Origin: Escherichia coli
GTDB lineage: Bacteria > Pseudomonadota > Gammaproteobacteria > Enterobacterales > Enterobacteriaceae
DNA: 64,000 nt
Assembly: GCF_001677475.2 (NCBI RefSeq)
Contig: NZ_CP015229.1
Direction: 5' to 3' (one strand)
Shown: positions 1-34,949 of the stretch, one piece after another
Layout of the letters: every line of letters starts with the position of its first letter
Position numbering within the stretch: position 1 is the first letter of the stretch
The notes under the pieces: generated by a model
The model's database searches: none
What the model saw: the letters and a program-made list of their open reading frames with translations, nothing else
Told to the model about the DNA's origin: nothing
Translations under genes and position numbers: made by a program

Positions 1-68
1 CCGGCAATCATCGGGCCAACCACGATCCCCGCAATCAGCAACACAAAGAGCAATAACACTTTTAGCAT
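1..68 (-). CDS. hemY: HemY (heme biosynthesis-associated protein), N-terminal fragment; gene continues beyond window start
   Basis: Minus-strand ATG at 66-68 translating MLKVLLLFVLLIAGIVVGPMIAG, directly downstream of hemX as in hemCDXY operon. Confidence 0.6.
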   Translation of the reverse strand, partial: MLKVLLLFVLLIAGIVVGPMIA

Positions 69-70
69 GG

Positions 71-1288
71 TTATTCTCCTTGCGGCGCGGCTGCCGGAGT
101 ATCAGCTTGCGGTGCAGGTGCAGGTGCAGGTGCAGGTGCAGGTGCAGGTGCAGGTGCAGGTTTAGCTTCCGTTGTCCCCGCTGCCGGTTGTGCCAACAGG
201 TTACGCACGCGAGTCTGCATCAGTTTTTCCAGCATCGCCTGGCTTTGCAGGGTTTCCGGAAGATCCATCGAGATATTTTGCTGGCTTAACTGGTCCACCT
301 CGTCGAGGAATGCTTTGGTGGTGGCATCATCAGTATCGTAGTAAGCACGTACCCAGGTGGAGACGTTCTCCAGCGCCTGGCGATAAGTCTCTTCCTGATG
401 ACGCGGTACAGCTTGTGCAGCGACCAGCAGGCGAGAGCGAATATTTTCGCGCAGATAGATATCCTGATTTGGCGCTAACAGCGGTACGGCGGTGTCATCA
501 CGACGGCGAATCGTAATGAAGTTGTCCATAAAGTTCTGCCAGCTTTTTTGCAGATTGATACGCCATTCGCTGATGGAACTGGAAAGCTCTTCACCGTCGG
601 AATCCATCGGCGAACCATCGCTGTCATTATCGGCCAGACGCAGGTTATCTACCTGATTTGAAAGCTGATTAAGCTTAAGGATGATGCCGTCATAATCCAC
701 CTGCGATACTGCAGAAAGGCTGGCGATATCATCGGTAATTGCCCGACGAACGGTAATCAGACTCGGGTCATTCATATCCGCCAGGCTGGCATCTGCACTT
801 TTCAGCAACGCTGCAGCGGTCGTGACGTCTTGATCGCTCCACAGCTTCCGTCCTGCGAGTTTCACCAGAAAATCGGCCTGAGCCAGCAGCCAGGTTTTAG
901 CATCGCTGCCGGAAATGGTGGCGACCTTTTGTTGGACTTCATCCAACTGTTTTGCCAGCGTTTCTTGCTGACGATTCGCCTGCTTAAGCTGTGCAGCTTG
1001 TTGCTTAATAATGCCTTCCAGCTCGGCTTTTTGGCTCTCCTGGGCTTTTTGCAATGCCGTCAGTTGGTTAGCCAGGGCATCGCTGGTGGCGGTCTGATTG
1101 ACGGCCTGTTGTTTACCCCAGCCATACAAACCGACGCCCGCCGCCAGAGCAATCGCGATAGCCACCGCGCTGAGAATCAATGCGGTATTGTTCTTACTCT
1201 TTTTTTCTGTTGCGACAGGTTGTGACGTGGTGTCCACGGCCTCCCTGGTCTCTTCAACCACGGCGGAGGTTTTTTCTTGTTCCGTCAT
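71..1288 (-). CDS. hemX: HemX, uroporphyrinogen-III methyltransferase-like membrane protein
   Basis: 405-aa ORF; membrane anchor, coiled-coil Q/A-rich region, C-terminal (PA)n tail; position between hemD and hemY. Confidence 0.9.
109..160. repeat. Hexanucleotide tandem repeat (GGTGCA/GCAGGT)x8 inside hemX 3' end, encoding (Pro-Ala)n
   Basis: Direct reading of sequence 109-160; translated on minus strand as [17 protein letters not shown]. Confidence 0.85.
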
Positions 1289-1309
1289 TATGGCTTCCTG
1301 TTATGAGAG

Positions 1310-2050
1310 TTATTGTAATGCCCGTAAAAGCGCATCGTTGTCAGCGTTATCGGCGACCTTAATGTCTTGCCAGCCCAGTTCCCGGGCGAGTTTCGCCAAA
1401 CGCTCACTGACGACCAATAGTCGACAGTGTAGTAACCAGTGCTCACGATACCATTGTGGGATCAGCGACCAGAGTTGCTGCAACATTTCACCGCTGGTAA
1501 CAACGACCGTCGTCACCTCGCGGGATTGCCAGCGCATCGCTTCTTCTGCACCATCGTAATGGATTGCGCATCGTTGATAACATTCACAAAAAGTGACCTC
1601 AGCACCGCGCGCCGTCAGGGTATCCCCAATTAGCTCACGACCGCCATTGCCACGTAATATCAGCGCACGTTTGCCCGCAATATTTTGTAATTCAGGTAAT
1701 TGTAGCAAGACTTCGCTGATTTCCCGATCCTGCGGGTAGAGAATCTTCTGTCCGCTTACGGTATGTAGCGCCAGTGCGGTGGTGCGTCCAATGGCGAAAT
1801 AATCAGGTAGTCGGGGCCATTTACGATCTTGCTGATGCAGCTGTGATTGGGCAAAAGCAACCGCGTGTTGCGAGAGGGCAAACAACAGATCGCTCTCCCC
1901 CAGCGCTGCCAGTTGATCAGCAAGTTGCGGTAATTGTCGACCCGGAGAAAACTCAATCAGCGGAAAATGCCAGGCCACCTGCCCCAGTGTGCGCAGACGG
2001 CTCACTAACTCTTCTCCAGCGGGAGACGGGCGGGTGACCAGGATACTCAT
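1310..2050 (-). CDS. hemD: Uroporphyrinogen-III synthase
   Basis: 246-aa ORF, ATGA overlap with hemC stop, operon context. Confidence 0.9.
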
Positions 2051-2988
2051 GCCGGGGCGTCTCCGTTATAGACTTCAGCAAGGATCTCGCGCGCGCCGTT
2101 ATTCAGTAGCTCTTCTGCCAGCGAAATCCCCATTTGTTCGGCATCTTGCGGCGCACCGCGGCGTTCACCGCGAATAATCTGCGAACCGTCCGGCGCGCCG
2201 ACCAGCGCACGCAGCCAGATTTCGCCATCAATAAGCTCGGCGTAGCTACCAATTGGCACCTGACATCCGCCTTCGAGACGGGTATTCATGGCGCGTTCTG
2301 CGGTAACGCGCAGTGCAGTTTCGTGGTGATTCAGCGCGGCAAGCAGCTCGCGAGTGCGTGTATCATCAAGGCGGCATTCAATGCCCACCGCACCTTGTCC
2401 TACCGCCGGAAGAGAAATCTCGGGTGGCAACGCGGCGCGAATACGTGACTCCAGACCTAAACGTTTTAGTCCGGCTACGGCAAGAATGATGGCATCGTAT
2501 TCGCCGTTATCCAGTTTGCTCAGGCGAGTGCCGACGTTGCCGCGCAGGGAGCGGATAATCAGATCCGGGCGGCGTTCAGCCAGTTGGCACTGGCGACGTA
2601 AACTGGACGTCCCGACGATACTGCCTGCCGGTAACGCATCCAGACTGTCATAGTTATTGGACACAAAGGCATCGCGAGGATCTTCACGCTCGCAAATAGT
2701 GACCAGCCCCAGACCTTGCGGGAATTCAACCGGCACATCTTTCATTGAATGTACGGCGATATCGGCGCGATTTTCGAGGAGCGCGATTTCCAGCTCTTTA
2801 ACAAATAAGCCTTTTCCGCCTACTTTCGCCAGCGGCGTATCAAGAATCACATCGCCGCGCGTCACCATCGGTACCAATTCAACGACCAGGCCCGGATGGC
2901 TCGCCATCAACTTGTCTTTGACATAGTGTGCCTGCCAGAGTGCAAGTGGGCTTTGGCGTGTGGCAATTCTTAAAACATTGTCTAACAT
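2047..2988 (-). CDS. hemC: Porphobilinogen deaminase (hydroxymethylbilane synthase)
   Basis: ORF 2047-3009; start placed at internal Met ([22 protein letters not shown]...) to give 313 aa. Confidence 0.9.
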
Positions 2989-3009
2989 GCTTGTTACCGT
3001 CATTATCAT

Positions 3010-3374
3010 CCGTGGTCCATCCTAACATCCTTGCCAGAGCGATGTCAGTGTTGTGGTGAAACGTAGACGCCTGCGCAAACCGTAAAATGAGGTCTGGCAG
3101 TGGATCCTGACAGGCGTTTCACGCCGTCGTAATAAGGAATTTACAGAGAATAAACGGTGCTACACTTGTATGTAGCGCATCTTTCTTTACGGTCAATCAG
3201 CAAGGTGTTAAATTGATCACGTTTTAGACCATTTTTTCGTCGTGAAACTAAAAAAACCAGGCGCGAAAAGTGGTAACGGTTACCTTTGACATACGAAATA
3301 TCCCGAATGCCGCGTGTTACCGTTGATGTTGGCGGAATCACAGTCATGACGGGTAGCAAATCAGGCGATACGTC
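3010..3374 (+). promoter_or_regulatory. hemC/cyaA divergent promoter region (cyaA promoters, CRP-responsive)
   Basis: 365-bp intergenic region between divergent hemC and cyaA; TTGACA-like hexamer near 3286; established cyaA regulation. Confidence 0.45.
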
Positions 3375-5921
3375 TTGTACCTCTATATTGAGACTCTGAA
3401 ACAGAGACTGGATGCCATAAATCAATTGCGTGTGGATCGCGCGCTTGCTGCTATGGGGCCTGCATTCCAACAGGTCTACAGTCTACTGCCGACATTGTTG
3501 CACTATCACCATCCGCTAATGCCGGGTTACCTTGATGGTAACGTTCCCAAAGGCATTTGCCTTTACACGCCTGATGAAACTCAACGCCACTACCTGAACG
3601 AGCTTGAACTGTATCGTGGAATGTCAGTACAGGACCCACCGAAAGGTGAGCTTCCAATTACTGGTGTATACACCATGGGCAGCACCTCGTCCGTAGGGCA
3701 AAGTTGTTCCTCTGACCTGGATATTTGGGTCTGTCATCAATCCTGGCTCGATAGCGAAGAGCGCCAGTTACTACAACGTAAATGCAGCTTGCTGGAAAGC
3801 TGGGCCGCCTCGCTGGGTGTGGAAGTCAGCTTCTTCCTGATTGATGAAAACCGCTTCCGTCATAATGAAAGCGGCAGCCTGGGGGGTGAAGATTGTGGCT
3901 CCACCCAGCATATACTGCTGCTTGACGAATTTTATCGTACCGCCGTGCGTCTCGCCGGTAAGCGTATTCTGTGGAATATGGTGCCGTGCGACGAAGAAGA
4001 GCATTACGACGACTATGTGATGACGCTTTACGCGCAGGGCGTGCTGACGCCAAATGAATGGCTGGATCTCGGTGGCTTAAGCTCGCTTTCTGCTGAAGAG
4101 TACTTTGGTGCCAGCCTTTGGCAGCTCTACAAAAGTATCGATTCTCCATACAAAGCGGTGCTGAAAACACTGCTGCTGGAAGCCTATTCCTGGGAATACC
4201 CGAACCCACGTTTGCTGGCGAAAGATATCAAACAGCGTTTGCACGACGGCGAGATTGTATCGTTTGGTCTCGATCCGTACTGCATGATGCTGGAGCGTGT
4301 TACTGAATACCTGACGGCGATTGAAGATTTTACCCGTCTGGATTTAGTACGTCGCTGCTTCTATTTAAAAGTGTGCGAAAAACTCAGCCGTGAACGCGCT
4401 TGCGTAGGCTGGCGTCGCGCAGTGTTGAGCCAGTTAGTGAGCGAGTGGGGTTGGGACGAAGCTCGTCTGACAATGCTCGATAACCGCGCTAACTGGAAGA
4501 TTGATCAGGTGCGTGAGGCGCACAACGAGTTGCTCGACGCGATGATGCAGAGCTACCGTAATCTGATCCGCTTTGCGCGTCGCAATAACCTTAGCGTCTC
4601 CGCCAGCCCGCAGGATATTGGCGTACTGACGCGTAAACTGTATGCCGCGTTTGAAGCGTTACCGGGTAAAGTGACGCTGGTAAACCCGCAGATTTCGCCC
4701 GATCTCTCGGAACCGAACCTGACCTTTATTTATGTGCCGCCGGGCCGGGCTAACCGTTCCGGTTGGTATCTGTATAACCGCGCGCCAAACATTGAGTCGA
4801 TCATCAGCCATCAGCCGCTGGAATATAACCGTTACCTGAATAAACTGGTGGCGTGGGCATGGTTTAACGGCCTGCTGACCTCGCGTACCCGTTTGTATAT
4901 TAAAGGTAACGGCATTGTCGATTTGCCTAAGTTGCAGGAGATGGTCGCCGATGTGTCACACCATTTCCCGCTGCGCCTGCCTGCACCGACGCCAAAAGCG
5001 CTCTACAGCCCGTGTGAAATTCGCCATCTGGCGATTATCGTTAACCTGGAATATGACCCGACAGCTGCGTTCCGCAATCAGGTGGTGCATTTTGATTTCC
5101 GTAAGCTGGATGTCTTCAGCTTTGGCGAGAATCAAAATTGCCTGGTAGGTAGCGTTGACCTGCTGTACCGCAACTCGTGGAACGAAGTGCGTACGCTGCA
5201 CTTTAACGGCGAGCAATCGATGATCGAAGCCCTGAAAACCATTCTCGGCAAAATGCATCAGGATGCCGCACCGCCAGATAGCGTGGAAGTCTTCTGTTAT
5301 AGCCAGCATCTGCGCGGGTTAATCCGTACTCGCGTGCAGCAACTGGTTTCTGAGTGTATTGAATTGCGTCTTTCCAGCACCCGCCAGGAAACCGGGCGTT
5401 TCAAGGCGCTGCGCGTTTCTGGTCAAACCTGGGGCTTGTTCTTCGAACGCCTGAATGTATCGGTACAGAAACTGGAAAACGCCATCGAGTTTTATGGCGC
5501 TATTTCGCATAACAAACTACACGGCCTGTCAGTGCAGGTTGAAACCAATCACGTCAAATTACCGGCGGTGGTGGACGGCTTTGCCAGCGAAGGGATCATC
5601 CAGTTCTTCTTCGAAGAAACGCATGACGAGAATGGCTTTAATATTTACATTCTCGACGAAAGCAACCGGGTTGAGGTGTATCACCACTGCGAAGGCAGCA
5701 AAGAGGAGCTGGTGCGTGACGTCAGTCGCTTCTACTCGTCATCGCACGACCGTTTTACCTACGGCTCAAGCTTCATCAACTTCAACCTGCCGCAGTTCTA
5801 TCAGATTGTGAAGGTTGATGGTCGTGAACAGGTGATTCCGTTCCGCACCAAATCGATTGGCAACATGCCGCCTGCCAATCAGGATCACGACACGCCGCTA
5901 TTACAGCAGTATTTTTCGTGA
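3375..5921 (+). CDS. cyaA: Adenylate cyclase (class I)
   Basis: 848-aa ORF with TTG start; N-terminus [31 protein letters not shown] matches CyaA. Confidence 0.95.
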
Positions 5922-5960
5922 TGAGCGTGCCGGAAAGCGAAGCTTATCCGGCATGCAATA

Positions 5961-6281
5961 TTAGCGGAAACTGACTGTTTCACCCGCCTGCTGCGTCGCC
6001 GCCTGTTCCAGCAAATCCCAGAAGGTTTCGCCGCTACGATCACAAATCCACTCATCGCCTTTCAGATCAAAATGGTAGCCGCCCTGTTTGGTTGCCAGCC
6101 ATACCTGGTGCAGCGGTTCCTGGCGGTTGATAATGATTTTGCTGCCGTTTTCAAAGGTAATGGTCAGTACACCGCCGTTGATTTCGCAGTCGATATCGCT
6201 GTCGCCATCCCAGTCGTCCAGGCGTTCTTCAATGGTCAGCCAGAGTTGATCAGCCAGGCGATGAAATTCACTGTCGTTCAT
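5961..6281 (-). CDS. cyaY: Frataxin homolog CyaY (iron-sulfur cluster assembly)
   Basis: 106-aa [36 protein letters not shown]; convergent with cyaA. Confidence 0.9.
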
Positions 6282-6743
6282 TGTTGTATCCTGTTTTTAA
6301 GTGATGGCGGCAGTATAGCGGCATGGGGTCAGGGCTTCAAAGTTTGCACCTCTGCGGCTGCGTTACGGCATGATTCATCCGTCACCGGAATAATGATGTC
6401 TCTGTGTAGCGAAAGATTTGTCTCTTCATTAGGGCGCAGTTACACCACGCCTTTCCCTGTTTCTGGTAAACATTATGATCAGGTTTACCGAGCGAGCATC
6501 CTCACGCTGACGGAACTAAAAAAGCCAACAAACAAACCACATTGCGATAGTGCATAAAGCCATCCTGGCACGAGGTGCCGATCACGAAACTGCCAGCAAA
6601 ACATAAATCGCCACGTGTAAGCGTTATACTCGCAGCATTTCCTCACTTTTCAGACTTCATAAAGAGTCGCTAAACGCTTGCTTTTACGCCTTCTCCTGCG
6701 ATGATAGAAAGCAGAAAGCGATGAACTTTACAGGCAATCCATA

Positions 6744-6947
6744 ATGAAAAACGTGTTTAAGGCACTCACTGTATTACTTACTCTCTTCAGCCTGACGGGC
6801 TGCGGTCTGAAAGGTCCGCTCTATTTCCCGCCTGCAGATAAAAACGCACCGCCGCCGACCAAACCGGTAGAGACGCAAACGCAATCCACGGTGCCGGATA
6901 AAAACGACCGTGCCACTGGCGATGGTCCATCCCAGGTGAATTACTAA
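6744..6947 (+). CDS. yifL: Small lipoprotein YifL
   Basis: 67-aa ORF with lipobox LTGC, immediately upstream of dapF. Confidence 0.8.
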   Translation: MKNVFKALTVLLTLFSLTGCGLKGPLYFPPADKNAPPPTKPVETQTQSTVPDKNDRATGDGPSQVNY

Positions 6948-6983
6948 AAGTCAGTTTCTGTACCCGCGTGATTGGAGTAAATG

Positions 6984-7808
6984 ATGCAGTTCTCGAAAAT
7001 GCATGGCCTTGGCAACGATTTTATGGTCGTCGACGCGGTAACGCAGAATGTCTTTTTTTCACCGGAGCTGATTCGTCGCCTGGCGGATCGGCACCTGGGG
7101 GTAGGGTTTGACCAACTGCTGGTGGTTGAGCCACCGTATGATCCTGAACTGGATTTTCACTATCGCATTTTTAATGCTGATGGCAGTGAAGTGGCGCAGT
7201 GCGGCAACGGCGCGCGCTGCTTTGCCCGTTTTGTGCGTCTGAAAGGGCTGACCAATAAGCGCGATATCCGCGTCAGCACCGCCAACGGGCGGATGGTTCT
7301 GACCGTCACCGATGATGATCTGGTTCGCGTAAACATGGGCGAGCCCAACTTCGAACCTTCCGCTGTGCCGTTTCGCGCTAACAAAGCGGAAAAGACCTAT
7401 ATTATGCGCGCCGCCGAGCAGACAATCTTATGTGGCGTGGTGTCGATGGGAAATCCGCACTGCGTGATTCAGGTCGATGATGTCGATACCGCGGCGGTAG
7501 AAACGCTTGGTCCTGTTCTGGAAAGCCACGAGCGTTTTCCGGAGCGCGCCAATATCGGTTTTATGCAAGTGGTTAAGCGCGAGCATATTCGTTTACGCGT
7601 TTATGAGCGTGGGGCAGGAGAAACCCAGGCCTGCGGCAGCGGCGCATGTGCGGCGGTGGCGGTAGGGATTCAGCAAGGTTTGCTGGCCGAAGAAGTACGC
7701 GTGGAACTCCCCGGCGGTCGTCTTGATATCGCCTGGAAAGGTCCGGGTCACCCGTTATATATGACTGGCCCGGCGGTACATGTCTACGACGGATTTATTC
7801 ATCTATGA
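6984..7808 (+). CDS. dapF: Diaminopimelate epimerase
   Basis: ORF 6981-7808; start at second Met gives 274 aa; [17 protein letters not shown] motif. Confidence 0.9.
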
Positions 7809-8512
7809 AGCAACCAGGGGAAGAACTGCAGGAAACACTCACGGAGCTTGATGACCGGGCGGTTGTCGATTATCTGATTAAAAATCCTGAGTTTTTTATC
7901 CGCAATGCGCGCGCAGTTGAAGCGATACGTGTGCCGCATCCGGTACGCGGCACCGTTTCGTTGGTCGAATGGCACATGGCCCGTGCACGTAATCATATTC
8001 ATGTTCTGGAAGAGAACATGGCGTTGTTGATGGAGCAGGCTATCGCCAACGAAGGGCTGTTTTATCGCTTACTCTACTTGCAGCGCAGTCTCACCGCCGC
8101 CAGCAGTCTCGATGATATGCTGATGCGCTTTCACCGCTGGGCGCGCGATCTCGGCCTGGCGGGTGCGAGTCTGCGCCTGTTTCCGGATCGCTGGCGCTTA
8201 GGTGCGCCGTCGAACCACACTCATCTGGCATTAAGCCGTCAGTCTTTCGAACCGCTGCGTATTCAGCGTTTGGGGCAGGAACAGCACTATCTTGGGCCAC
8301 TTAACGGACCAGAGCTGCTGGTGGTGCTACCGGAAGCGAAAGCGGTGGGATCGGTGGCGATGTCGATGCTGGGAAGCGATGCTGATTTGGGTGTCGTGCT
8401 GTTTACCAGTCGCGATGCCAGTCACTATCAACAAGGGCAGGGAACGCAGTTACTTCATGAAATTGCGCTGATGTTGCCGGAGCTTCTGGAGCGTTGGATT
8501 GAACGCGTATGA
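7805..8512 (+). CDS. yigA: DUF484 protein YigA
   Basis: 235-aa ORF overlapping dapF stop and xerC start (operon dapF-yigA-xerC-yigB). Confidence 0.85.
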
Positions 8513-26035: not shown

Positions 26036-28297
26036 ATGACAATTCTTAATCACACCCTCGGTTTCCCTCGCGTTGGCCTGCGTCGCGAGCTGAAAAAAGC
26101 GCAAGAAAGTTATTGGGCGGGGAACTCCACGCGTGAAGAATTACTGGCAGTAGGGCGTGAATTGCGTGCTCGTCACTGGGATCAACAAAAGCAGGCGGGT
26201 ATCGACCTGCTGCCGGTGGGCGATTTTGCCTGGTACGATCATGTTCTGACCACCAGCCTGCTGCTGGGTAACGTTCCGGCGCGTCATCAGAATAAAGACG
26301 GTTCGGTGGATATCGACACCCTGTTCCGTATTGGTCGCGGTCGTGCGCCAACTGGTGAACCTGCGGCGGCGGCAGAAATGACCAAATGGTTTAACACCAA
26401 CTATCACTACATGGTGCCGGAATTCGTTAAAGGCCAACAGTTCAAACTGACCTGGACGCAGCTGCTGGATGAAGTAGACGAGGCGCTGGCGTTGGGTCAC
26501 AAGGTGAAACCTGTGCTTCTGGGGCCGGTTACCTGGCTGTGGCTGGGTAAGGTGAAAGGTGAACAGTTTGACCGCCTGAGCCTGCTGAACGACATTCTGC
26601 CGGTTTATCAGCAGGTTCTGGCAGAACTGGCCAAACGTGGTATTGAGTGGGTACAGATTGACGAACCGGCGCTGGTGCTGGAACTGCCGCAGGCGTGGCT
26701 GGATGCGTATAAACCTGCTTACGATGCACTCCAGGGGCAGGTGAAACTGCTGCTGACCACCTATTTTGAAGGTGTAACGCCAAACCTTGACACGATTACT
26801 GCGCTGCCTGTTCAGGGGCTGCATGTGGACCTTGTACATGGTAAAGATGACGTTGTTGAACTGCACAAGCGTTTGCCTTCTGACTGGTTGCTGTCTGCGG
26901 GTCTGATCAATGGTCGTAACGTCTGGCGCGCCGATCTCACCGAGAAATATGCGCAAATTAAGGACATTGTCGGCAAACGTGATTTGTGGGTGGCATCTTC
27001 CTGCTCACTGCTGCATAGCCCCATCGACCTGAGCGTGGAAACGCGTCTTGATGTAGAAGTGAAAAGCTGGTTTGCCTTCGCCCTACAAAAATGCCATGAA
27101 CTGGCACTGCTGCGCGATGCGCTGAACAGTGGTGACACGGCAGCTCTGGCAGAGTGGAGCGCCCCAATTCAGGCGCGTCGTCACTCAACCCGCGTACATA
27201 ATCCGGCGGTAGAAAAGCGTCTGGCAGCGATCACCGCCCAGGACAGCCAGCGTGAGAATGTCTATGAAGTGCGTGCCGAAGCTCAGCGTGCGCGTTTTAA
27301 ACTGCCAGCGTGGCCGACCACCACGATTGGTTCTTTCCCGCAAACCACGGAAATTCGTACCCTGCGTCTGGATTTCAAAAAGGGTAATCTCGACGCCAAC
27401 AACTACCGCACGGGCATTGCGGAACATATCAAGCAGGCCATTGTTGAGCAGGAACGTTTAGGACTGGATGTGCTGGTACATGGCGAGGCTGAGCGTAATG
27501 ACATGGTGGAATACTTTGGCGAGCACCTCGACGGGTTTGTCTTTACGCAAAACGGTTGGGTACAGAGCTACGGTTCCCGCTGCGTGAAGCCACCGATTGT
27601 TATTGGTGACGTTAGCCGCCCGGCACCGATTACCGTGGAGTGGGCGAAGTATGCGCAATCGCTGACCGACAAACCGGTGAAAGGGATGCTGACCGGCCCG
27701 GTGACGATTCTCTGCTGGTCGTTCCCGCGTGAAGATGTCAGCCGTGAAACCATCGCCAAACAAATTGCGCTGGCGCTGCGTGATGAAGTGGCGGACCTGG
27801 AAGCCGCAGGAATTGGCATCATCCAGATTGATGAACCGGCGCTGCGCGAAGGTTTACCGCTGCGTCGCAGCGACTGGGATGCCTATCTCCAGTGGGGCGT
27901 GGAGGCTTTCCGTATCAACGCCGCCGTGGCGAAAGATGACACACAAATCCACACTCACATGTGTTACTGCGAGTTCAACGACATCATGGATTCGATTGCT
28001 GCACTGGACGCAGACGTCATCACCATCGAAACCTCGCGTTCTGACATGGAGTTGCTGGAGTCGTTCGAAGAGTTTGATTATCCGAATGAAATCGGTCCAG
28101 GCGTCTATGACATTCACTCGCCAAACGTACCGAGCGTGGAATGGATTGAAGCCTTGCTGAAGAAAGCGGCAAAACGCATTCCGGCAGAGCGCCTGTGGGT
28201 CAACCCGGACTGTGGCCTGAAAACGCGCGGCTGGCCAGAAACCCGCGCGGCACTGGCGAACATGGTGCAGGCGGCGCAGAATTTGCGTCGGGGATGA
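26036..28297 (+). CDS. metE: Cobalamin-independent methionine synthase
   Basis: 753-aa [32 protein letters not shown]. Confidence 0.95.
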
Positions 28298-33393: not shown

Positions 33394-34949
33394 GCGTTTA
33401 GCCCCTTTTTCTGCAACTGAGTCTGTGCAACGGTGCTGGCCCATAGCGCCGCCTGTGCATTGCTGCTGGCGATGATGACCCCTGCATTTTGTAGTGCGCT
33501 TATCTGCTGGCTGCGTATTTGCGGATCAGCTTCCGTTCCGCAAACGTGCGCAATCAGCAACGGTGCGTTATTCATGTCGATGTGTGAAAGTTGGTCCAGT
33601 AATTCGCTGGCAGGCGTCGTGGAAGCGCCATAACCAAGTACCAGGTCGAATAACACGACGGCAGTGTGTGAGTCGTTGAGTTCGTTGAGCAGACGTTGAT
33701 TGCGCAGAGTCGGATCGATCATTGGATGCGGTTTGCCACGGGTGAAATCATCGTCGCCCATATCGATCAACGTGTGATCTTCGCTTTGCCAGATATTTGC
33801 CAGAGCACGATTACCCGCAACTGGCGTATTGGAAGCTGCGCTGAATCCCTTTTGTTGGCAGATAAGTTGCGCTTCGTAGCAGAAGGTTCCTCCGGCGAAA
33901 ACACCGCGTATCGCCTGGCGATGGGCTGGCAGGCGCTGGCAGGCGTTTTGTAACATTGTGAGATCGTCGCAGGGTACATCGGTTTCGACAGCCGGAAATG
34001 GCTGAGCATTCAGTAACGCCACAGCGATGTCGGCGGCGCTGGCAAGTGTGGTGGCGGCAGTGATATTGGGACGTGCCAGATCATGCGGATTCGCCCCGAG
34101 GAAATTCACCACCACGGGTTTTCCACAAGCCTCGGCGCGCTCCAGAATAGTCCGGGCAACGATCGGTGAAGGCGGTTTTGAAATAAGCACAATCACGCGA
34201 GTTTCATCGTCTTGCGCCAGCGCATCTAAAGCGAAGAGCATCGATATTCCACTAATCTCTTCACTGAGATCATGTCCGCCTGTTCCCAACGCCTGAGAAA
34301 TACCCGCTCCGAGCTGGTCGATTCGGCAAGTCACTTCCTGTAGCCCGGTGCCTGACGCGCCAATAACACCAATCGCTCCACGTTTCACCACATTGGCGAA
34401 GCCTAACGGAATGCCGTTAACGATGGCGGTTCCACAGTCAGGTCCCATTACGATGCGCTGACGTTCTCGGGCAAGTGTTTTGATGGATTTTTCCTGCGCG
34501 ATACTGACGTTATCGCTGAACATCATCACGTTCATTCCGAGGTTTAACGCTTTAATTGCTTCGGCGGCGGCGTAGTCTCCCGGTACAGAAATGAGTGCCA
34601 GGTTGGCTTCGGGTTCGGCTTCCAGTGCCATTTCCAGGCTGACCTTTTCCGGTGTTTTAATGCCACTACCCGTTTCATCATCGGGTTTGCTGGTCAGACG
34701 TTGCTGGGCCAGTACCAGTGCTTCATTGCAAATATCTTCTTCACCCATGACTGCAATCACTAAATCATTGGGACTGGCGTTGATTTCGTTACCCAGACCC
34801 ACATCGCGCAATTGTTCGAGATTATTGGGTGTTCCCATGACGACCGAAGCCTGTTGAATACCGGGCAATTTGCTGATTTGCGCGGAAATCTGCATCAGAG
34901 AAACCGAGTCCTGATAAAGATTGCTGAGAACTTTATGTTTAACTTTCAT
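33390..34949 (-). CDS. FdrA/YahF-like protein (succinyl-CoA-synthetase-alpha-like CoA-binding fold) (island)
   Basis: 519-aa ORF; GxGxxG-type glycine-rich segments VIGASGTGLQEV, LGTGGHDL. Confidence 0.8.
   Translation of the reverse strand: MKVKHKVLSNLYQDSVSLMQISAQISKLPGIQQASVVMGTPNNLEQLRDVGLGNEINASPNDLVIAVMGEEDICNEALVLAQQRLTSKPDDETGSGIKTPEKVSLEMALEAEPEANLALISVPGDYAAAEAIKALNLGMNVMMFSDNVSIAQEKSIKTLARERQRIVMGPDCGTAIVNGIPLGFANVVKRGAIGVIGASGTGLQEVTCRIDQLGAGISQALGTGGHDLSEEISGISMLFALDALAQDDETRVIVLISKPPSPIVARTILERAEACGKPVVVNFLGANPHDLARPNITAATTLASAADIAVALLNAQPFPAVETDVPCDDLTMLQNACQRLPAHRQAIRGVFAGGTFCYEAQLICQQKGFSAASNTPVAGNRALANIWQSEDHTLIDMGDDDFTRGKPHPMIDPTLRNQRLLNELNDSHTAVVLFDLVLGYGASTTPASELLDQLSHIDMNNAPLLIAHVCGTEADPQIRSQQISALQNAGVIIASSNAQAALWASTVAQTQLQKKGLNA

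What the first reader, a model, noticed from the sequence alone, without database searches (positions are those of the whole stretch)
109..160. In-frame hexanucleotide microsatellite in hemX encoding a (Pro-Ala)8 tail
There are eight uninterrupted GGTGCA/GCAGGT units on the plus strand, which is TGCACC read on the hemX strand, giving [17 protein letters not shown] near the HemX C-terminus. This ORF is 405 aa, against my recollection of 393 aa in K-12, consistent with repeat-number variation in steps of 6 nt (2 aa). Such SSRs are slippage-prone and can serve as strain-typing markers or tune linker length.
Basis: partly seen in the sequence, partly recalled or inferred. Interest (0 to 1): 0.35.

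Follow-up and report, generated by a model that had tools for sequence, protein, structure and literature searches.

The report
Known E. coli typing repeat CVN014
The eight-unit six-base repeat at the end of the hemX gene is real and varies widely between strains, but it is the well-known CVN014 marker that laboratories have used since 2007 to fingerprint E. coli, so it is ordinary.

Summary
Window 111..161 holds 8.5 perfect GGTGCA units. On the minus strand they encode K-(PA)8-P-Q, residues 376-394 of a 405-aa HemX, 12 residues before the stop. The published primers for CVN014, a locus of the generic E. coli MLVA scheme, match the window exactly at 26..49 and 165..184. The amplicon is 159 bp, and the published formula (size-111)/6 gives allele 8. 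The literature calls CVN014 the most variable locus of that assay.

My checks on 5,425 complete E. coli genomes agree:
- 120 systematically sampled genomes fall into 17 length classes (0-17 units, diversity about 0.89).
- Verified alleles have 1, 2 (K-12, 393 aa), 15, 17 and 25 perfect units, and one strain has an in-frame deletion of the whole tract.
- Three O157:H7 genomes with 6,352 nt of identical flanks carry 5, 7 and 12 units.

The tract lies outside the Pfam HemX domain, in a tail that is predicted to be disordered and is not conserved across 80 species.

The best explanation is replication slippage in a hexanucleotide repeat that always stays in frame, giving probably neutral variation in tail length. 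It is already known and of low interest. The same unit has also expanded in some Citrobacter and Raoultella species.

The parts
111..161 (-). Perfect hexanucleotide array, 8.5 x GGTGCA on the plus strand. On the coding minus strand it reads (CCT GCA)x8 at 113..160 plus CCG at 110..112, giving (Pro-Ala)8-Pro at HemX residues 377-393.
   Evidence: TRF. Chance test. Translation. Unit check.
71..1288 (-). hemX coding sequence, 405 aa plus TAA stop at 71..73. The Pfam HemX domain covers residues 130-363. Residues 367-405 form a predicted-disordered Pro/Ala-rich tail.
   Evidence: ORF list. Pfam PF04375 E 4e-108. AlphaFold2 model with last helix at 348-366 and pLDDT 31-36 afterwards.
26..49 (+). Binding site of the published CVN014 forward primer TCCCCGCAATCAGCAAMACAAAGA. 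It lies inside the first codons of hemY.
   Evidence: Exact match. Primer taken from PMC8143711 Table 1.
165..184 (-). Binding site of the published CVN014 reverse primer GCAGCRGGGACAACGGAAGC. The in-silico amplicon 26..184 is 159 bp, or 111 + 8x6, which is allele 8.
   Evidence: Exact match. Formula (PS-111)/6 from PMC8143711.
74..81 (-). Shine-Dalgarno sequence AAGGAGAA of hemY, formed by the last hemX codons (CAA GGA GAA, Gln-Gly-Glu). This explains why the QGE end is conserved while the rest of the tail varies.
   Evidence: Read from the sequence. QGE with the GGAG motif is conserved in all 80 species loci.
1..68 (-). 5' end of hemY. Its ATG is at 68..66, two bases after the hemX stop, and the gene runs off the window.
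   Evidence: Sequence. RefSeq annotation of orthologous loci as hemY.

Best explanation
This is the VNTR locus CVN014 of the generic E. coli MLVA typing scheme. It is a perfect CCTGCA/GGTGCA hexanucleotide microsatellite inside the 3' end of hemX. Whole units are gained and lost, most likely by slipped-strand mispairing during replication (inferred). Because the unit is two codons long, every allele stays in frame and only lengthens or shortens a (Pro-Ala)n stretch in HemX's C-terminal tail. That tail is predicted to be disordered and is poorly conserved. The length variation is most likely selectively neutral or nearly so (inferred), and the hemY ribosome-binding site just downstream is unaffected. 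The window carries allele 8.
For: Identity of the locus:
- Both published CVN014 primers match exactly and uniquely at 26..49 and 165..184 (primers and formula from PMC8143711).
- The 159-bp amplicon equals the published 111-bp offset plus 8x6.

Polymorphism:
- The locus is found in 5,425 of 5,426 complete E. coli genomes. Matched spans differ from the query in multiples of 6 nt.
- 120 systematically sampled genomes give 17 length classes, with diversity 0.89.
- Sequence-verified alleles have 1, 2, 15, 17 and 25 perfect units.

Fast, local mutation:
- Three O157:H7 genomes have 0 mismatches over 6,352 nt of flanks but carry 5, 7 and 12 units.
- Every allele inspected is an uninterrupted run of units.

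Probable neutrality:
- The tract lies outside the Pfam domain.
- Residues 367-405 have pLDDT 31-36 and no secondary structure.
- The tail sequence is not conserved across 80 species apart from the terminal QGE.
- NCTC11023 lacks the whole tract through a 63-nt in-frame deletion.
- Predicted accessibility of the hemY ribosome-binding site is 0.17 for every n from 0 to 20.
Against: - No slippage event was observed directly. The mechanism is inferred from the pattern of variation.
- Neutrality is inferred, not measured. HemX function is poorly known, so an effect of tail length cannot be excluded.
- The allele distribution comes from two 60-row samples, with unit numbers inferred from match spans. 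Eleven loci were checked at sequence level.
- The original Lindstedt 2007 description could not be read, so the locus identity rests on primers reproduced in a later paper.
- Hairpin formation by the repeat DNA does not exceed shuffled controls at 8 units (z -0.75 and -1.31), so a structure-assisted slippage mechanism is not established.
Confidence: 0.9

Rival explanations
1. Repeat number is adaptive. The (Pro-Ala)n stretch acts as a stiff spacer whose length tunes how HemX works in the envelope, and selection maintains different lengths in different lineages.
For: - The tail is Pro/Ala-rich in all 80 species examined.
- The same unit has expanded independently in Escherichia, three Citrobacter species and Raoultella.
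- A preprint calls HemX a distant Mic60 homologue, and that family has contact-site roles.
- Alleles cover a wide range, 0-25 units.
Against: - Only 12 residues follow the tract, and the whole tail is predicted to be disordered, so there is no downstream domain to position.
- A natural isolate lacks the tract entirely.
- Salmonella and most other genera have no repeat.
- Genomes with identical flanks differ by up to 7 units, as expected from mutational noise rather than lineage-specific optima.
- No phenotype linked to allele length was found in the literature searched.
Confidence: 0.06
2. The repeat acts at the RNA level. Its length changes mRNA structure or ribosome traffic just upstream of hemY and so tunes hemY translation.
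For: - The array ends 42 nt upstream of the hemY start codon.
- The hemY Shine-Dalgarno lies inside the last hemX codons, and the stop and start codons are 2 nt apart, so translational coupling is plausible.
Against: - Predicted unpaired probability of the Shine-Dalgarno-to-AUG region is 0.17 for all of n = 0, 1, 2, 4, 6, 8, 10, 12, 15, 17 and 20.
- The repeat folds on itself and does not pair with the ribosome-binding site.
- Ribosomes finishing hemX would unwind this region in any case (inference).
Confidence: 0.02
3. The length differences arise mainly by homologous recombination or import of foreign hemX alleles, not by local slippage.
For: E. coli recombines, and flanking SNP haplotypes differ between phylogroups (one search shows flank variants such as TATCAG/TATCAC).
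Against: - Three O157:H7 genomes share 6,352 nt of identical flanks but carry 5, 7 and 12 units.
- One flank haplotype (TATCACC) carries 1, 15, 17 and 25 units.
- Published ST131 isolates differ at this locus alone.
Confidence: 0.02

Closest known systems
CVN014, a locus of the generic E. coli MLVA schemes GECM-7 and GECM-10 (Lindstedt et al. 2007; Lobersli et al. 2012)
   Same: It is the same locus. Both primers match exactly, the unit is 6 bp, the offset is 111 bp, and the allele range and high variability match published data.
   Different: Nothing at the DNA level. The open-access MLVA papers I searched do not mention that the locus lies in hemX or encodes a (Pro-Ala)n tail. I could not read the original description.
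Other in-frame hexanucleotide VNTRs used for typing enteric bacteria, such as the O157:H7 loci TR1-TR7 and Y. enterocolitica V5
   Same: They have 6-bp units, vary by whole units, and are used in MLVA. The measured rates for O157 loci are about 4e-5 to 1.8e-3 per generation (PMC3777172). Y. enterocolitica V5 has the same GGTGCA unit.
   Different: None of TR1-TR7 has this unit (TR7 is GACCAC), so this is a separate locus. Whether Yersinia V5 is the orthologous hemX tract was not tested.
Phase-variable contingency loci (simple-sequence repeats that switch genes on and off)
   Same: They are slippage-prone simple repeats inside or next to genes, with high mutation rates.
   Different: The unit here is two codons long, so no allele shifts the frame. 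All sampled length differences are multiples of 3, so there is no on/off switch.
Pro-Ala or X-Pro linkers of envelope and multidomain proteins, such as the OmpA hinge, the TonB Pro-rich rod and the E2 lipoyl-domain linkers (from general knowledge, not tested here)
   Same: They share an alternating Pro-Ala composition that is expected to be extended and unstructured.
   Different: Those linkers connect folded or functional modules. Here only 12 disordered residues follow, and the tract can be absent.

Membership tests
CVN014 locus of the generic E. coli MLVA | Forward primer TCCCCGCAATCAGCAAMACAAAGA anneals next to the repeat | tested here: met
   A single exact match at 26..49 on the plus strand, with 0 hits in 100 shuffles. 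The primer is from PMC8143711 Table 1.
CVN014 locus of the generic E. coli MLVA | Reverse primer GCAGCRGGGACAACGGAAGC anneals on the other side, facing inward | tested here: met
   A single exact match at 165..184 on the minus strand.
CVN014 locus of the generic E. coli MLVA | 6-bp unit with a 111-bp non-repeat offset in the amplicon | tested here: met
   The amplicon 26..184 is 159 bp, or 111 + 48, so (159-111)/6 gives 8 units. This agrees with TRF.
CVN014 locus of the generic E. coli MLVA | Highly polymorphic among E. coli isolates | tested here: met
   17 length classes in 120 sampled complete genomes and verified alleles of 1-25 units. Published alleles range from 2 to 12.
Slippage-driven microsatellite / VNTR | Uninterrupted head-to-tail identical units, with alleles that differ by whole units | tested here: met
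   100% matches in the window. Perfect runs in all 11 sequence-checked alleles that carry a repeat. Spans differ by multiples of 6.
Slippage-driven microsatellite / VNTR | Repeat number changes faster than the flanking sequence | tested here: met
   Three O157:H7 genomes have 0 mismatches in 6,352 nt of flanks but 5, 7 and 12 units.
Slippage-driven microsatellite / VNTR | Unit gain or loss observed directly during replication (passage or fluctuation assay) | not testable with these tools
   This needs laboratory passage or deep long-read data. Rates are published only for other O157 loci.
Phase-variable contingency locus | A change in repeat number shifts the reading frame or promoter spacing and switches expression | tested here: not met
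   The unit is 6 nt, or 2 codons. RefSeq hemX CDSs of 384-439 aa are all intact, and the predicted hemY ribosome-binding-site accessibility does not change.
HemX protein family (Pfam PF04375) | Significant match to the family profile above the gathering score | tested here: met
   E 4e-108, 360.9 bits against a cut-off of 25.9, residues 130-363. The repeat lies outside the matched domain.
O157:H7-specific MLVA loci TR1-TR7 (Noller 2003) | Repeat unit identical to one of the seven listed units | tested here: not met
   The units are AAATAG, TGGCTC, TATCTT, TGCAAA, AAGGTG, an 18-mer and GACCAC (PMC2246123 Table 2). None is a rotation or complement of GGTGCA.
Interdomain Pro-Ala linker | Folded domains on both sides of the tract | tested here: not met
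   The last predicted helix ends at residue 366, and residues 367-405 have pLDDT below 50 with no secondary structure. The model's overall confidence is modest (mean pLDDT 61).

The most novel reading that the evidence does not exclude
The length of the HemX (Pro-Ala)n tail may not be neutral. The same CCTGCA unit has expanded repeatedly at the same position in Escherichia, Citrobacter and Raoultella, and possibly in the Yersinia V5 locus. This could reflect selection for an adjustable periplasmic spacer in a Mic60-like inner-membrane protein, so that CVN014 alleles carry envelope or respiration phenotypes.
Probability: 0.05. Interest if true: 0.4.

Novelty: already known. Interest (0 to 1): 0.1.

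Why it matters
It matters little for discovery. Three modest points are worth keeping:
- CVN014 alleles are HemX protein-length variants (384-439 aa in RefSeq). This explains the many near-identical HemX accessions and matters for protein clustering and cgMLST allele calling.
- The repeat changes much faster than neighbouring sequence even within O157:H7. It resolves close relatives but is homoplasious over deeper phylogeny.
- The same hexamer has expanded at the orthologous site in other genera, a small example of recurrent microsatellite birth from an APAP seed.

Tried and rejected
- O157 loci: I tested whether the locus is also O157 TR7/O157-19. It is not. The TR7 unit is GACCAC, and none of TR1-TR7 matches.
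- Hairpins: I tested whether the repeat DNA forms unusually stable slipped hairpins. TGCA blocks do pair, but at 8 units the energy does not differ from shuffles (z -0.75 and -1.31). It reaches z -3.34 only on one strand at 15 units. I therefore do not claim this as the mechanism.
- hemY translation: I tested whether unit number changes accessibility of the hemY ribosome-binding site. It does not.
- Papers not held: Lindstedt 2007, Noller 2003 and Gierczynski 2007 could not be read.
- Literature searches: searches for 'hemX' with tandem repeat, MLVA or VNTR found no paper linking the gene name to the locus. One search on O157-19/TR7 terms returned only irrelevant papers.
- Plus-strand ORF: the 69-aa ORF at 80..289 ([16 protein letters not shown]...) is the mechanical antisense reading of the repeat, and I dismissed it.
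- Full census: I did not attempt to count alleles in all 5,425 genomes, because the search tool lists at most 60 rows per call. I used two systematic samples instead.

Full report
**Observation.** The plus strand of the window carries a perfect tandem array at 111..161: period 6, 8.5 copies of GGTGCA, 100% matches and no indels. It is the only substantial tandem repeat in the 64-kb window. The other two TRF rows are two-copy matches at 28213..28251 and 33925..33945. A three-unit probe matches six overlapping positions in the array, and none of 100 dinucleotide-preserving shuffles gives a match.

The array lies in the minus-strand ORF 71..1288, which is 405 aa and ends ...[40 protein letters not shown]. 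Read in frame, (CCT GCA)x8 occupies 113..160 and is followed by CCG at 110..112. The tract is therefore (Pro-Ala)8-Pro at residues 377-393, twelve residues before the TAA stop at 71..73. The ORF is HemX: Pfam PF04375, E 4e-108, with the domain covering residues 130-363, so the repeat is outside it. The neighbours are hemY (ATG at 68..66), hemD, hemC and cyaA (RefSeq annotation of orthologous loci).

**What it is.** The primers published for CVN014, a locus of the generic E. coli MLVA scheme, are reproduced in PMC8143711 Table 1 together with the sizing formula (product size - 111)/6. Both match the window exactly and only once: the forward primer at 26..49 on the plus strand and the reverse primer at 165..184 on the minus strand. 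The in-silico amplicon is 159 bp, or 111 + 8x6, which makes the window allele 8. The finding is therefore the known VNTR locus CVN014.

The literature describes the locus as follows:
- Alleles 2-12 occur in a Swedish ESBL E. coli collection (PMC5217547 Table 3).
- It is the usual single-locus variant among ST131, ST648 and ST38 isolates, with alleles 2-11 in ST131 (PMC3407997).

It is not one of the O157-specific loci TR1-TR7, whose units are all different. TR7, for example, is GACCAC (PMC2246123 Table 2).

**Independent check of polymorphism.** A 400-nt query across the locus hits 5,425 of 5,426 complete E. coli genomes. The matched span in the record ranges from 337 to 439 nt and, apart from one 63-nt deletion, differs from 400 in multiples of 6. 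A second search with the K-12 allele gave the same picture. Each search listed 60 records taken at even steps down the ranking. From the spans of these 120 records I infer these unit counts:

| Units | Genomes |
|---|---|
| 0 | 1 |
| 1 | 2 |
| 2 | 21 |
| 3 | 5 |
| 4 | 5 |
| 5 | 18 |
| 6 | 18 |
| 7 | 14 |
| 8 | 11 |
| 9 | 5 |
| 10 | 8 |
| 11 | 3 |
| 12 | 4 |
| 13 | 2 |
| 14 | 1 |
| 15 | 1 |
| 17 | 1 |

That is 17 classes with a Nei diversity of 0.89. A best-hit search with a 15-unit allele showed at least 14 genomes with 15 units, and spans implying 20-25 units.

I checked eleven loci at sequence level, and in each one the length difference lies in the repeat itself:
- 1 unit (HemX 391 aa), 2 units (K-12 type, 393 aa) and 15 units (419 aa).
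- 17 units (423 aa) and 25 units (439 aa), both as uninterrupted runs.
- 5, 7 and 12 units in three O157:H7 genomes.
- NCTC11023 lacks the tract through a 63-nt in-frame deletion that also removes QADTP. Its HemX is 384 aa.

K-12 derivatives all show 2 units and B-lineage strains show 6.

**Rate relative to point mutation.** Three O157:H7 chromosomes (Z1835, Z563, RM8376) are identical at all 6,352 flanking positions compared (3,110 nt on one side, 3,242 nt on the other) but carry 7, 12 and 5 units. One flanking haplotype (..TATCACCTTGC) is found with 1, 15, 17 and 25 units. This is the signature of a local, fast, unit-wise process. It argues against import of alleles by recombination.

**Mechanism.** The most likely mechanism is slipped-strand mispairing of a perfect hexanucleotide array during replication. 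This is inferred from the pattern, not observed. The unit is two codons, so every allele stays in frame. No sampled length difference fails to be a multiple of 3, and all RefSeq hemX CDSs inspected are intact. The locus therefore cannot act as an on/off contingency switch.

I tested whether hairpins formed by the repeat could assist slippage. The palindromic TGCA blocks pair, with GG/GG or CC/CC mismatches between them. At 8 units the predicted stability does not exceed that of shuffled sequences (z -0.75 and -1.31). It exceeds them only for a 15-unit allele (z -1.96 and -3.34). I therefore treat this as unproven.

**Consequence for the protein.** An AlphaFold2 model built from a 49-sequence ortholog alignment (A1) is of modest overall confidence (mean pLDDT 61, pTM 0.38). 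It is clear on one point: the last helix ends at residue 366, and residues 367-405 have pLDDT 31-36 and no secondary structure.

In 80 species-level orthologous loci, the segment after the conserved ...[14 protein letters not shown] is 19-54 aa long, rich in Pro, Ala, Thr and Glu, and not conserved in sequence. Only the terminal Gln-Gly-Glu is conserved. Its codons, CA(A/G)GGAGA(A/G), form the Shine-Dalgarno sequence of hemY, which is AAGGAGAA at 74..81 in the window. The conservation of QGE is therefore explained at the RNA level.

The tract is not a linker between folded domains, a natural isolate lacks it, and the Keio hemX deletion is viable (PMC12282077). The length variation is thus most likely neutral or nearly so, though this is inferred. 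Unit number also has no predicted effect on the hemY ribosome-binding site. The mean unpaired probability from the Shine-Dalgarno to the AUG is 0.17 for every allele from 0 to 20 units.

**Wider distribution.** Perfect period-6 runs of at least 18 nt occur in 7 of the 80 species loci:
- Escherichia sp. E1V33 (45 nt)
- an E. coli-like species representative (45 nt)
- E. albertii (39 nt)
- Citrobacter sp. NCU1 (61 nt)
- Citrobacter sp. Awk 4 (89 nt)
- Citrobacter sp. R56 (83 nt)
- Raoultella ornithinolytica (24 nt)

All use the same CCTGCA unit. Many other Citrobacter species carry only an 11-nt proto-repeat, GCACCTGCACC, and Salmonella has no repeat. This suggests recurrent expansion from an Ala-Pro-Ala-Pro seed.

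The Yersinia enterocolitica MLVA locus V5 also has the unit GGTGCA, with alleles from 4 to at least 16 (PMC3053224).

**Comparison and novelty.** This is a member of a known kind and, more precisely, the very locus already named CVN014. The membership features that could be tested (both primer sites, unit size, offset, polymorphism) are all met. The open-access MLVA papers I searched do not mention the gene name, and I could not read the original description. The link between CVN014 and the HemX (Pro-Ala)n tail may therefore be little advertised, but it is not a new biological entity.

**Verdict.** The only reading with any novelty is that tail length has a phenotype in this poorly characterised protein, which a preprint calls a distant Mic60 homologue. 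I put that at about 5%.

Noticed in passing
window 1..8000: No complete E. coli genome among the 5,425 with a match is more than 98.4% identical to the first 8 kb of the window. Among Escherichia species representatives, the closest over 2.6 kb is Escherichia sp. MOD1-EC7003 at 96.3%, and the others are at 91.5% or less. The window therefore seems to come from an E. coli or Shigella-like lineage that is poorly represented among complete E. coli assemblies.
   Followed up: partly
window 71..82 (minus strand); L005-L084: The last hemX codons, CAA GGA GAA TAA, contain the hemY Shine-Dalgarno sequence AAGGAGAA, and the hemY ATG follows 2 nt after the stop. The Gln-Gly-Glu end is present in all 80 species, although the rest of the tail is not conserved. 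This is protein-sequence conservation imposed by an overlapping translation signal.
   Followed up: partly
L002 (E. coli NCTC11023, NZ_LS483297.1 4600938-4601874): A 63-nt in-frame deletion removes the entire repeat and the following QADTP codons. The junction is ...GCTGCCGG|TTTAGC..., at a short GG microhomology, and HemX is 384 aa. With CVN014 primers this strain would give a product shorter than the 111-bp offset.
   Followed up: partly
L019, L020, L023 (Citrobacter spp.); L073 (Raoultella ornithinolytica): The same CCTGCA hexamer has expanded at the orthologous hemX position to about 10-15 units in three Citrobacter species and 4 units in Raoultella. Most other Citrobacter species have only an 11-nt proto-repeat.
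   Followed up: partly
literature: PMC3053224 Table 1 (Yersinia enterocolitica MLVA locus V5): Locus V5 of the Y. enterocolitica MLVA scheme has the identical unit GGTGCA, with alleles from 4 to at least 16. It may be the orthologous hemX tract. I could not check this.
   Followed up: no
E. coli genome search results: One of 5,426 genomes has no match to the hemY-hemX junction. A few genomes have two copies, and one copy is on a plasmid.
   Followed up: no
window 71..1288 (hemX): RefSeq annotates HemX as 'uroporphyrinogen-III C-methyltransferase'. The predicted structure, however, is an N-terminal disordered and transmembrane region, a 70-residue helix and a helical bundle, with no methyltransferase-like strands. 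The literature calls the protein poorly characterised, or a distant Mic60 homologue. The product name looks like a historical misnomer.
   Followed up: partly
window 28213..28251 and 33925..33945: Two minor two-copy tandem duplications, of 19-nt and 10-nt units, are the only other TRF hits in the window.
   Followed up: no
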